From assembly GCF_013167455.1 (NCBI RefSeq), contig NZ_CP038328.1: DNA of 64,000 nt; one strand, written 5' to 3'. The position numbers are program-made. Shown in pieces: positions 7,801 to 10,800 of this stretch. The DNA comes from Escherichia coli O157:H7 (lineage in GTDB: Bacteria; Pseudomonadota; Gammaproteobacteria; Enterobacterales; Enterobacteriaceae). The stretch's first letter is position 1, and each line of letters opens with the position of its first letter.

Positions 7801-10800
7801 TGCGGTTCTTACTCGCCAATACATTTTGCAAAATTGTTAAGCAATTCTCTTTTATTGACCGTATCAGAATCTATAGCTTGCATCCATGTCTTAACAAACA
7901 TCTTTAAATTCAATCAAATAGAGATTGGTTAAGCATGTCGATCTTTTCTGATTACAGTTCCAGTAGTGAAATGCACAATAATTTAACAATTGATTATTAT
8001 TTAGCACTTTCCTCTACCAAAGGCAGTGGAATTACTAATATCATTTCAATTATTCTTCAGCAAGCCCAGGATTATGATGTGGCGAAAATAACATGATGAT
8101 GAGGAGAAGCAGTTAAGGAAATCCTTATAACTAACTGTAATTTGAGAAGAATATTTTTACCTATTCCTTTTGCTTTTGATAACTGCGCGGGAACAAAGTA
8201 AAAATAATGACGAAGTAAACGGAGCATGGCAGCTCCGTTTCATTTGAAAGGAATTAATTAAGCAGGCCGGGGAAAATCCCCTTAATACCAGTAACGATAA
8301 ATTCAATCCCCAATGCCATCAGCAATAGCCCCATAATACGCGTAATCACGTTGATGCCGGTCTGGCGTAAAACCCGTACCAGCCACGGTGCCATGCGGAA
8401 CAATCCCCAACAACATAAAGCGAACAATGCAATAGCCACAAAGAAACCAAACAGATAGCTAATGCTGTGATAACGCGTACCCCAGACGATGGTAGAACTG
8501 ATCGCCCCTGGCCCCGCCATCAACGGCAACGCCAATGGCACCACACCAATACTTTCACGTACCGCGGTTTCTGATTTTTCTTGCTTGTTCTGTTTATCCT
8601 CGCCAAGCTTGCCGCTGATCATCGACATCGCTATCGTCACCACCAGGATGCCCCCGGCGATACGGAACGAATCAATTGATATACCAAAAAGTTGCAGAAT
8701 CGTGTCGCCGAGAAAAAGCGAGATCCACAAGATAATGGCCACAGACAGGTTGGCTGTAAGGTTAGTTTTGTTTCGCGCTGCCGCTGTCTGATAACTGGTC
8801 ATGCTGATAAAGACGGGAATAATCCCTACCGGGTTGACCAGCGCAAATAACCCGATGAAAAATTTGAAGTAAACGGGAAAATCAAAAAGGGTCTGAATCA
8901 CGGTTAGCTCCGAAGCAAAAGCCGGATAATGTTAGCCATAAATAAGGTTGAAAAGACGCGCTGACAATACGCCTTTTGACAGCATTTTTCACCTCCTAAC
9001 TACTTAAAATTGCTATCATTCGTTATTGTTATCTAGTTGTGCAAAACATGCTAATGTAGCCACCAAATCATACTACAATTTATTAACTGTTATCTATAAT
9101 GGCGAAAAGCGATGCTGAAAGGTGTCAGCTTTGCAAAAATTTGATTTGGATCACGTAATCAGTACCCAGAAGTGAGTAATCTTGCTTACGCCACTTGGAA
9201 GTGACGCATTAGAGATAATAACTCTAATGTTTAAACTCTTTTAGTAAATCACAGTGAGTGTGTGCGCGAGTAAGCTTTTGATTTTCATCGGTTAAGCAAA
9301 TCATCACCGCACTGACTATACTCTCGTATTCGAGCAGATGATTTACTAAAAAAGTTTAACATTATCAGGAGAGCATTATGGCTGTTACTAATGTCGCTGA
9401 ACTTAACGCACTCGTAGAGCGTGTAAAAAAAGCCCAGCGTGAATATGCCAGTTTCACTCAAGAGCAAGTAGACAAAATCTTCCGCGCCGCCGCTCTGGCT
9501 GCTGCAGATGCTCGAATCCCACTCGCGAAAATGGCCGTTGCCGAATCCGGCATGGGTATCGTCGAAGATAAAGTGATCAAAAACCACTTTGCTTCTGAAT
9601 ATATCTACAACGCCTATAAAGATGAAAAAACCTGTGGTGTTCTGTCTGAAGACGACACTTTTGGTACCATCACTATCGCTGAACCAATCGGTATTATTTG
9701 CGGTATCGTTCCGACCACTAACCCGACTTCAACAGCTATCTTCAAATCGCTGATCAGTCTGAAGACCCGTAACGCCATTATCTTCTCCCCGCACCCGCGT
9801 GCAAAAGATGCGACCAACAAAGCGGCTGATATCGTTCTGCAGGCTGCTATCGCTGCCGGTGCTCCGAAAGATCTGATCGGCTGGATCGATCAACCTTCTG
9901 TTGAACTGTCTAACGCACTGATGCACCACCCAGACATCAACCTGATCCTCGCGACTGGTGGTCCGGGCATGGTTAAAGCCGCATACAGCTCCGGTAAACC
10001 AGCTATCGGCGTAGGCGCGGGCAACACTCCGGTTGTTATCGATGAAACTGCTGATATCAAACGTGCAGTTGCATCTGTACTGATGTCCAAAACCTTCGAC
10101 AACGGCGTAATCTGTGCTTCTGAACAGTCTGTTGTTGTCGTTGACTCTGTTTATGACGCAGTACGTGAACGTTTCGCAACCCACGGCGGCTATCTGTTGC
10201 AGGGTAAAGAGCTGAAAGCTGTTCAGGACGTTATCCTGAAAAACGGTGCGCTGAACGCGGCTATCGTTGGTCAGCCAGCCTATAAAATTGCTGAACTGGC
10301 AGGCTTCTCTGTACCAGAAAACACCAAGATTCTGATCGGTGAAGTGACCGTTGTTGATGAAAGCGAACCGTTCGCACATGAAAAACTGTCCCCGACTCTG
10401 GCAATGTACCGCGCTAAAGATTTCGAAGACGCGGTAGAAAAAGCAGAGAAACTGGTTGCTATGGGTGGTATCGGTCATACCTCTTGCCTGTACACTGACC
10501 AGGATAACCAACCGGCTCGCGTTTCTTACTTCGGTCAGAAAATGAAAACGGCTCGTATCCTGATTAACACCCCGGCTTCTCAGGGTGGTATCGGTGACCT
10601 GTATAACTTCAAACTCGCACCTTCCCTGACTCTGGGTTGTGGTTCCTGGGGTGGTAACTCCATCTCTGAAAACGTTGGTCCGAAACACCTGATCAACAAG
10701 AAAACCGTTGCTAAGCGAGCTGAAAACATGTTGTGGCACAAACTTCCGAAATCTATCTACTTCCGCCGTGGCTCCCTGCCAATCGCGCTGGATGAAGTGA

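What the first reader, a model, noticed from the sequence alone, without database searches (positions are those of the whole stretch)
7934..8095. Unannotated 53-codon ORF in the AT-rich oppA-ychE intergenic region
ATG at 7934 opens a 53-codon frame (MSIFSDYSSSSEMHNNLTIDYYLALSSTKGSGITNIISIILQQAQDYDVAKIT) on the plus strand, opposite to both flanking genes, with a hairpin (8210-8240) downstream. Codon usage is AT-rich and atypical and the ribosome-binding site is weak, so it may be spurious. The roughly 740-bp intergenic region is unusually long and may instead be the oppA leader and regulatory region.
Basis: seen in the sequence. Interest (0 to 1): 0.2.

Follow-up and report, generated by a model that had tools for sequence, protein, structure and literature searches.

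The report
Chance ORF across the oppA promoter
The 53-codon reading frame exists, but it is a chance, non-conserved frame lying backwards across the main promoter and start of the long leader of the oligopeptide transporter gene oppA, so the finding is ordinary.

Summary
The window is E. coli O157:H7. The ORF is real but sits at 7935..8096 (+), one base off the stated coordinates. It is no longer than chance: 45% of shuffles of this 737-bp spacer give an ORF at least as long.

It is the tail of a 98-codon frame (7800..8096). NCBI's PGAP pipeline annotates that frame as "hypothetical protein" in many E. coli genomes. O157 carries a TCA>TAA nonsense change at 7905-7907.

The frame is broken by stops or frameshifts in all five other Escherichia species clusters sampled. 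It is absent in 70 other Enterobacteriaceae. It shows no codon-position bias, no gene-like codon usage, a weak ribosome-binding site and no homologues outside the locus. A published list of translated intergenic ORFs in strain Sakai does not include it.

The strong nucleotide conservation inside it comes from known oppA regulatory DNA on the other strand:
- the P1 promoter (-35 at 8063-8058, extended -10 at 8043-8035, start site at about 8027);
- the first 93 nt of the 511-nt leader;
- a published ArcA site (7969-7989).

Promoter P2 and the MicF pairing site explain the other conserved blocks. The downstream hairpin is the ychE terminator. Interest is low.

The parts
7935..8096 (+). The 53-codon ORF of the finding. 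Judged to be a chance, non-functional frame.
   Evidence: coordinates and translation; chance expectation; not conserved; codon usage; ribosome-binding site.
7800..8096 (+). Parent 98-codon frame. It is intact in K-12 and most E. coli (PGAP 'hypothetical protein' WP_001211520.1) and interrupted in this window.
7905..7907 (+). In-frame TAA (C7906A; TCA in K-12) that splits the 98-codon frame into 35 codons before the stop and the 53-codon ORF.
   Evidence: The same 33-mer with TAA is in 437 of 5426 complete E. coli genomes; the TCA version is in about 4193.
8058..8063 (-). oppA promoter P1, -35 hexamer TTGCTG.
   Evidence: 17-bp spacer to the -10 hexamer. TTGCTG, TTGCCG or TTGATG in 74 of 77 aligned sequences. 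Position fits the mapped P1.
8035..8043 (-). oppA promoter P1, extended -10 TGaTATTAG. K-12 alone has TATTAT.
   Evidence: TATTAG in 75 of 77 sequences. The K-12 difference is at 8035.
8027..8027 (-). oppA transcription start P1 (+1), plus or minus 1 nt.
   Evidence: Carrier et al. 2023 (PMC9988348) give P1 +1, P2 +246 and an RNase E site at +341. Their T7-oppA oligo for the RNA 'starting at +341' begins ATCGACATAAGG, which is window 7687 on the minus strand, so +1 = 8027. P2 then falls at 7782, matching the independent start site at K-12 1298939 = window 7783.
7517..8027 (-). 511-nt oppA leader transcribed from P1. The ORF is antisense to its first 93 nt.
   Evidence: Igarashi's 171-nt 'P3' leader equals 7687-7516.
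7969..7989 (-). Published ArcA binding site oppA1 (TTGTTAAATTATTGTGCATTT), inside the ORF.
   Evidence: Park et al. 2013 supplement: site at K-12 1298733-1298753 and ChIP peaks at 1298685-1298696, about window 8026-8037. Conserved across genera.
8078..8093 (.). Conserved palindrome-like TGTGG/A-N6-TAACA centred about 58.5 bp upstream of P1, resembling a CRP-type site. Inference only.
   Evidence: conservation. I found no binding data.
7814..7819 (-). oppA promoter P2, -35 hexamer TTGGCG.
   Evidence: 73 of 77 sequences. It is the promoter sequence printed with the mapped start site in Kim et al. 2012.
7790..7798 (-). oppA promoter P2, extended -10 TGgTACTTT.
   Evidence: TGnTACTTT in 71 of 77 sequences.
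7782..7783 (-). oppA transcription start P2 (267-nt leader).
7823..7843 (+). Published ArcA binding site oppA2 (ATTTTGCAAAATTGTTAAGCA), upstream of P2 and inside the 98-codon frame.
   Evidence: K-12 1298879-1298899.
7636..7656 (-). MicF pairing site in the leader (+372 to +392).
   Evidence: The sequence AUAAAUAAAGUCGGUGAUAGC is complementary to the MicF 5' end as given in the T7-micF oligo. It is the most conserved block of the proximal leader.
7687..7687 (-). RNase E cleavage site (+341), formerly called P3.
8217..8240 (-). ychE intrinsic-terminator hairpin.
   Evidence: A stable hairpin directly after the ychE stop codon occurs in 75 of 77 aligned sequences, with long U-tracts in Enterobacter and others.

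Best explanation
The 53-codon ORF is a chance open frame with no coding function. It lies antisense across DNA that does have a function: the distal sigma-70 promoter P1 of the oppABCDF operon, its upstream control region, and the first 93 nt of the 511-nt oppA leader.

This is the proposed working of the region:
- RNA polymerase starts at about 8027 on the minus strand, using TTGCTG, a 17-bp spacer and an extended -10 (TGaTATTAG).
- ArcA binds at 7969-7989 and at 7823-7843. FNR, Lrp and H-NS have also been reported at this spacer or acting on oppA.
- A second promoter, P2, starts at 7782/7783.
- The leader is cut by RNase E at 7687 and pairs with MicF at 7636-7656 and with GcvB at the ribosome-binding site.

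Selection on these elements keeps parts of the sequence almost unchanged across Enterobacteriaceae. That gives a false impression of a conserved 'protein' in translated searches. In most E. coli the frame happens to stay open for 98 codons, and gene callers sometimes annotate it. In the O157:H7 lineage a nonsense change leaves the 53-codon tail.

Shown here: the anatomy, the coordinate mapping, the conservation pattern, and the absence of coding signatures. Taken from the literature: the K-12 start-site mapping and the ArcA and FNR ChIP data. Inferred: that P1 is active in O157, and that the ORF is never translated.
For: **Position relative to oppA elements**
- P1 maps to about 8027 from three independent anchors that agree within 1 nt: the +341 oligo sequence, the P2 start site of Kim et al., and the MicF-protected +372..+392 falling on a MicF-complementary conserved block.
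- The promoter hexamers are conserved while their spacers vary. P1 -10 TATTAG is in 75 of 77 sequences, P2 -35 TTGGCG in 73 of 77.
- Published ArcA sites fall on the two conserved blocks at 7969-7989 and 7823-7843, and the stronger ArcA ChIP peak (oppA1) lies at about the P1 start. The FNR ChIP peak centre maps to about 7947. Shimada et al. mark the spacer as H-NS-bound.

**No coding signature**
- An ORF of at least 53 codons appears in 45% of shuffles.
- In the five other Escherichia species clusters the frame has 1-4 in-frame stops and/or a 1-nt indel, and the ATG at 7935 is replaced. The nucleotides after the frameshift stay nearly identical.
- Of 70 non-Escherichia species, none has a start codon at the aligned site, 2 have the stop, and 1 has an open frame. 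Segment lengths are 160-163 nt.
- Conservation by codon position is 0.79/0.70/0.70, so the third position is not relaxed.
- Among 12 E. coli strains the variable sites split 6:5:4 by codon position. The 16 changes are 6 synonymous, 9 missense and 1 nonsense, not different from neutral expectation (p = 0.10-0.25).
- The codon log-likelihood ratio is -0.10 per codon, against at least +0.076 for all 29 long genes in the window.
- The ribosome-binding site is weak.

**No relatives and no translation record**
- The only protein hits among 5.8 billion clusters and 1.84 billion representatives are variants of this same locus. There is no Pfam, NCBIfam or PDB match.
- The table of translated intergenic ORFs in O157:H7 Sakai jumps from XECs164 (ends 1742657) to XECs165 (1757510). 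Nothing is listed at Sakai 1743583-1743744.
- PGAP annotation is inconsistent for unbroken 98-codon frames: 98 aa, 53 aa or nothing.
- The nonsense allele is carried by 437 of 5426 complete genomes.
Against: - The 98-codon parent frame is somewhat long for 37% G+C DNA. Only 2.4% of shuffles of this spacer reach that length.
- It is open in about three quarters or more of complete E. coli genomes.
- The within-E. coli sample has a mild, non-significant excess of synonymous changes.
- I saw no strand-specific RNA-seq or ribosome-profiling tracks. Absence from one published list depends on that study's thresholds and growth conditions.
- P1 was mapped in K-12. Its -10 hexamer (TATTAT) differs from the TATTAG of O157 and nearly all other sequences.
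Confidence: 0.9

Rival explanations
1. The 98-codon frame, or its 53-codon tail, is a young protein-coding gene specific to E. coli. It would have arisen de novo, overprinted antisense on the oppA promoters, and been inactivated in the O157:H7 lineage.
For: - The frame is open for 98 codons in most E. coli, which only 2.4% of shuffles achieve.
- PGAP calls it in many genomes.
- It is restricted to E. coli/Shigella, as a de novo gene would be.
- There is a slight, non-significant synonymous excess.
Against: - Codon usage, G+C by codon position and ribosome-binding site are not gene-like.
- No + strand promoter was found upstream.
- The frame is broken in every sister Escherichia species cluster.
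- The nonsense allele is fixed in a large lineage, 437 genomes.
- The scan's complete-genome hits include IS5 and IS1 insertions in this spacer (the IS5 splits the 98-codon frame) in K-12-type laboratory strains, and an IS2 insertion in W3110 is reported.
- PGAP calls are inconsistent for unbroken 98-codon frames.
- It is not among the Sakai translated intergenic ORFs, although only the 53-codon remnant exists there.
- The highly conserved codons coincide exactly with known oppA promoter and ArcA motifs.
Confidence: 0.04
2. The + strand here makes a non-coding antisense RNA. It would start at the promoter-like TGCACA-17-TATTAT (7972-8000), end at the two-way hairpin at 8217-8240, and interfere with oppA P1 transcription.
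For: - A promoter-like match lies on the + strand at 7972..8000.
- The hairpin also folds well on the + strand, -16.6 kcal/mol.
- Both hexamers lie in conserved sequence.
Against: - The number of promoter-like matches in the region is not above shuffles: 4 found against 2.7 +/- 1.3.
- The TGCACA hexamer is part of the published ArcA site, and both hexamers lie in the conserved start of the P1 leader, which accounts for their conservation.
- There is no Rfam match.
- Such an RNA would start downstream of the ORF's ATG, so it could not express the ORF.
- I could not retrieve any experimental + strand start site.
Confidence: 0.05

Closest known systems
oppABCDF promoters P1/P2 and the long oppA 5' leader of E. 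coli K-12 (Igarashi et al. 1997, as cited in Carrier et al. 2023; Carrier, Lalaouna and Masse 2023, PMC9988348; Kim et al. 2012, PMC3415461)
   Same: The locus and sequence are the same: 98.8% identity over 7500-8300. The mapped +1, +246, +341 and +372..392 positions land on the window's conserved blocks. The finding's interval covers P1 positions -69 to +93.
   Different: The mapping was done in K-12, not O157:H7. K-12 has TATTAT where O157 and 75 of 77 aligned sequences have TATTAG in the P1 -10 hexamer. Sequenced K-12 stocks also carry IS5 or IS2 inside this interval.
PGAP 'hypothetical protein' WP_001211520.1 (98 aa) and WP_000051910.1 (53 aa) in RefSeq E. coli genomes
   Same: Same frame and same stop codon.
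   Different: These are ab initio calls with no supporting family, domain or experiment. They are applied inconsistently to unbroken 98-codon frames. In O157:H7 the 98-codon version is broken by TAA.
OppX, the MicF sponge derived from the oppA 5' UTR in Salmonella (described in PMC9988348), and the 'ychE-oppA' Hfq-dependent sRNA of Raghavan et al. 2011 (cited in PMC6505713 and PMC4070566)
   Same: Same spacer. The longest OppX form (410 nt) would have to start near P1, inside the finding's interval.
   Different: OppX is on the oppA strand, opposite to the ORF. Carrier et al. could not detect a stable leader fragment in E. coli. I could not retrieve the coordinates or strand of the Raghavan sRNA.
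Novel intergenic and antisense small genes proposed in E. coli O157:H7 from RIBOseq (Huecker et al. 2017, PMC5597208)
   Same: Same organism and the same class of candidate: a short unannotated intergenic ORF.
   Different: This ORF is not in their list of translated intergenic ORFs. It also lacks the expression evidence that defines that set.

Membership tests
Protein-coding gene (small protein) | ORF longer than expected by chance in its sequence context | tested here: not met
   An ORF of at least 53 codons occurs in 45% of 2000 dinucleotide shuffles of the spacer. The 98-codon parent occurs in 2.4%.
Protein-coding gene (small protein) | Reading frame, start and stop conserved in related genomes | tested here: not met
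   All five other Escherichia species clusters have stops and/or frameshifts. Of 70 other species, none has the start, 2 have the stop and 1 has an open frame.
Protein-coding gene (small protein) | Substitutions concentrated at third codon positions; dN/dS below 1 | tested here: not met
   Cross-genus conservation by codon position is 0.79/0.70/0.70. Within E. coli the variable sites split 6:5:4, and 6 synonymous, 9 missense and 1 nonsense changes do not differ from neutrality. The sample is small.
Protein-coding gene (small protein) | Host-like codon usage and a ribosome-binding site | tested here: not met
   Codon log-likelihood ratio is -0.10 per codon against at least +0.076 for the window's genes, and G+C by codon position is flat. 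Anti-Shine-Dalgarno pairing is -2.9 kcal/mol, against -5.8 to -8.0 for the neighbours.
Protein-coding gene (small protein) | Homologues or a recognised domain | tested here: not met
   Only variants of the same locus were found. No Pfam, NCBIfam or PDB match.
Protein-coding gene (small protein) | Evidence of translation | tested here: not met
   It is absent from the Sakai RIBOseq table of translated intergenic ORFs. Raw profiling tracks and proteomics cannot be examined with these tools.
Sigma-70 promoter plus 5' leader of oppABCDF (P1) | Experimentally mapped transcription start inside the interval, on the oppA strand | tested here: met
   Published K-12 positions were transferred to the window through three sequence anchors that agree within 1 nt. 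P1 is at about 8027.
Sigma-70 promoter plus 5' leader of oppABCDF (P1) | -35 and -10 elements at proper spacing, conserved while the spacer varies | tested here: met
   TTGCTG, a 17-bp spacer, then TGaTATTAG. The -10 hexamer is identical in 75 of 77 aligned sequences.
Sigma-70 promoter plus 5' leader of oppABCDF (P1) | Regulator binding in the interval | tested here: met
   The published ArcA site at K-12 1298733-53 equals window 7969-7989, and ArcA ChIP peaks lie at about 8026-8037. The FNR peak is at about 7947. Shimada et al. mark the spacer as H-NS-bound.
Sigma-70 promoter plus 5' leader of oppABCDF (P1) | Promoter activity in this strain (O157:H7, TATTAG allele) | not testable with these tools
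   Mapping and lacZ fusions were done in K-12, which carries TATTAT.
Leader-derived sRNA (OppX-like) or cis-antisense RNA | A discrete stable transcript overlapping 7935-8096 | tested here: inconclusive
   No Rfam match at E <= 1. Carrier et al. saw no stable leader fragment in E. coli. The + strand promoter-like site is not above chance. The primary paper for the Raghavan sRNA is not held.

The most novel reading that the evidence does not exclude
The 98-codon frame, intact in most E. coli and cut to 53 codons in O157:H7, is a very young E. coli-specific gene born de novo antisense over both oppA promoters. On this reading the same DNA would encode a protein on one strand and two promoters, two ArcA sites and the leader start on the other.
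Probability: 0.04. Interest if true: 0.45.

Novelty: not a real feature. Interest (0 to 1): 0.07.

Why it matters
It matters little for biology. As a gene the ORF is not real, and what occupies the interval is already described: oppA promoter P1, ArcA sites and the start of the long leader.

The practical value is for annotation. RefSeq carries thousands of copies of a 'hypothetical protein' (98 aa, or sometimes 53 aa) that is best explained as a chance frame over a promoter. Translated-search 'conservation' of that frame in other genera is a by-product of conserved regulatory DNA. The case is a clean example of how to separate nucleotide-level from protein-level constraint.

Tried and rejected
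**Searches that returned nothing useful**
- Rfam scan of 7000-9500 at E <= 1: only two chance eukaryotic-family hits.
- Pfam, NCBIfam and PDB sequence searches: no hits.
- Full-text search for the peptide sequences and WP accessions: nothing.
- Raghavan et al. 2011 and Thomason et al. 2015 are not held, so I could not obtain the coordinates of the reported 'ychE-oppA' sRNA or any antisense start sites.
- The Weaver et al. small-protein preprint does not mention ychE, oppA or ychT.

**Ideas I considered and dropped**
- tblastn of the 98-aa protein gave weak 'hits' in Citrobacter, Salmonella, Enterobacter and others. These first looked like protein conservation. I rejected that after the alignment showed indels that are not multiples of three, stops, and equal conservation at all codon positions.
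- I considered the hairpin at 8217-8240 as a terminator for the ORF. I rejected this because it lies 120 nt beyond the ORF's stop codon. It starts 13 nt after the ychE stop, and an equivalent hairpin follows ychE in 75 of 77 aligned sequences.
- I considered a small leader peptide on the oppA strand (ATG at 8044-8042, MILVI...). I rejected it because that ATG lies upstream of the P1 start and the frame and length are not conserved (read from the alignment).
- I did not predict a structure. An orphan sequence with no alignment depth would give a meaningless model.
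Full report
**What is there.** The window matches E. coli O157:H7 chromosomes at 100% identity over 7500-8300. The finding lies in the 737-bp spacer (7517-8253) between oppA (5885..7516, -) and ychE (8254..8901, -), with adhE further on. The ORF with the quoted translation exists, but at 7935..8096, one base off the stated coordinates. The spacer is 37% G+C.

**The ORF is a remnant of a longer frame.** In K-12 the same frame is open from 7800 to 8096, 98 codons. PGAP annotates it as hypothetical protein WP_001211520.1. O157:H7 has TCA>TAA at 7905-7907 in that frame. The O157 33-mer carrying TAA is present in 437 of 5426 complete genomes. The K-12-type TCA 33-mer is in about 4193.

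PGAP treats the frame inconsistently. In twelve strains compared, ten have the frame unbroken. Of these, four are annotated as 98 aa, one (EC476) as the 53-aa version, and five (including BL21) not at all.

**Chance expectation.** In 2000 dinucleotide-preserving shuffles of the spacer, 45% contain an ATG-ORF of at least 53 codons and 2.4% one of at least 98 codons. The real spacer also holds 68- and 51-codon ORFs. So the 53-codon ORF is unremarkable. The 98-codon parent is only mildly unusual for a single spacer among thousands.

**Comparative test.** I fetched the ychE-oppA spacer from 75 species representatives through YchE. Its length is nearly constant, about 720-800 bp in most.

Nucleotide conservation is blocky. 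The high blocks are 7637-7656, about 7783-7860 and about 7975-8096. Conservation is low in between and drops right after 8096.

The frame itself is not conserved:
- The five other Escherichia species clusters carry 1-4 in-frame stops. Four have a 1-nt insertion near 8066 and one a 1-nt deletion near 7855.
- None of the five keeps the ATG at 7935.
- The nucleotides beyond the frameshift stay almost identical.
- Among 70 non-Escherichia species, none has a start codon at the aligned site, 2 have the stop, and 1 is open. The aligned segment is 160-163 nt long.
- Conservation by codon position is 0.79/0.70/0.70 in the best-conserved part.

Within E. coli, 15 variable sites split 6:5:4 by codon position. 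The 16 changes are 6 synonymous, 9 missense and 1 nonsense, against a neutral expectation of about 23-25% synonymous and 4% nonsense (p = 0.10-0.25).

**Intrinsic signals.**
- The codon log-likelihood ratio is -0.10 per codon. All 29 long genes in the window score at least +0.076.
- G+C by codon position is 0.31/0.37/0.30, against 0.59/0.41/0.53 for those genes.
- Anti-Shine-Dalgarno pairing is -2.9 kcal/mol. One third of all ATGs in the window do as well.
- No + strand promoter-like site lies upstream of either ATG.

**Homology and expression.** Searches of 5.8 billion protein clusters and, without a word index, of 1.84 billion representatives found only variants of this same locus. Several are chimeras or frameshifted. 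Pfam, NCBIfam and PDB gave nothing.

In Sakai coordinates the ORF is complement(1743583..1743744). The Huecker et al. table of translated intergenic ORFs passes from XECs164 (ends 1742657) to XECs165 (1757510) with nothing in between.

**What the conserved DNA is.** Carrier et al. 2023 mapped oppA start sites P1 (+1) and P2 (+246), an RNase E site at +341 (Igarashi's former 'P3'), and MicF pairing at +372..+392. Three anchors place these on the window:
- Their oligo for the RNA starting at +341 begins ATCGACATAAGG. That is window 7687 on the minus strand, so +1 = 8027 and the leader is 511 nt.
- P2 then falls at 7782. Kim et al. 2012 independently list an oppA start site at K-12 1298939, which is window 7783, with a 267-nt leader. 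They print the promoter TTGGCG...TGGTACTTT.
- +372..+392 becomes 7656..7636. This is the conserved block, and it is complementary to the MicF 5' end.

Upstream of 8027 lie TTGCTG (8063-8058), a 17-bp spacer, and TGaTATTAG (8043-8035). TATTAG is identical in 75 of 77 sequences.

Park et al. 2013 list two ArcA sites:
- K-12 1298733-53, which is window 7969-7989, inside the ORF.
- K-12 1298879-99, which is window 7823-7843, inside the 98-codon frame.

Their oppA1 ChIP peaks map to about 8026-8037. An FNR ChIP peak centre maps to about 7947. Shimada et al. mark the spacer as H-NS-bound.

The last conserved stretch (8064-8096) holds TGTGA-N6-TAACA in most genera, which resembles a CRP-type site. 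That assignment is my inference only.

The ORF is therefore antisense to P1 positions -69 to +93, and known regulatory elements account for its conserved nucleotides.

**The hairpin.** The stem at 8217-8225/8232-8240 is stable (about -15 kcal/mol, z about -4.5). It begins 13 nt after the ychE stop codon. An equivalent hairpin follows ychE in 75 of 77 aligned sequences, often with a long U-tract. It is the ychE terminator, not part of the ORF.

**Verdict.** Nothing is new apart from an annotation caveat.

The residual possibilities are a young de novo gene (about 4%) and a cis-antisense RNA (about 5%). Strand-specific transcript and ribosome-profiling data, which I could not access, would be needed to exclude them.

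Noticed in passing
window 7933/7934, about 8035, and about 7640-7660; loci L094, L095: The spacer looks like an insertion-sequence hot spot in laboratory K-12 lines. IS5 sits directly after 7933 in an MG1655-type strain, within the P1 leader at about +95 and 1 nt before the ORF's ATG. IS2 is reported in W3110 at K-12 1298687, about window 8035, which is the P1 -10 hexamer. IS1 lies in the proximal leader of strain TUM22766. Chimeric protein-database entries (P0050, P0015, P0004) hint at further rearrangements in natural isolates. This may reflect selection on opp expression.
   Followed up: partly
window 8035 (minus strand, last base of the P1 -10 hexamer): K-12 alone among the 77 aligned sequences has TATTAT instead of TATTAG. 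This is closer to the consensus -10, with the usually critical final T. P1 strength measured in K-12 may overstate P1 in O157 and other E. coli.
   Followed up: partly
window 8078-8093: A conserved TGTGA-N6-TAACA element (TGTGG-N6-TAACA in E. coli) is centred about 58.5 bp upstream of P1 and resembles a CRP-type site. I found no binding data for it in the papers I could read.
   Followed up: no
window 8932-8985 (-): RefSeq annotates an 18-codon CDS 'protein YchT' just upstream of ychE. It carries the gene name 'ychE', which looks like a labelling slip.
   Followed up: no
window about 9022-9129 (Sakai 1742550-1742657): Huecker et al. list a translated 108-nt intergenic ORF (XECs164) in the adhE-ychE spacer. 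It is distinct from YchT.
   Followed up: no
window 7517-7561 (-): The Sakai record NC_002695.2 starts oppA 45 nt upstream (1744118) of the ATG used by PGAP. That extends the CDS over the oppA ribosome-binding site, which is the GcvB target, so it is probably an over-extended start.
   Followed up: no
window 8205-8253 (-); loci L024-L034: The ychE terminator has a long U-tract in Enterobacter and several other genera. In E. coli the tract is degraded (GUUUACUUCG), so some read-through from ychE toward oppA P1 is conceivable.
   Followed up: partly
protein P0013: A 98-aa copy of the frame, with an apparent local frameshift, is labelled Enterobacter hormaechei. The E. hormaechei reference locus (L031) has no such frame, so the record is probably a mislabelled or contaminated Escherichia assembly.
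   Followed up: no
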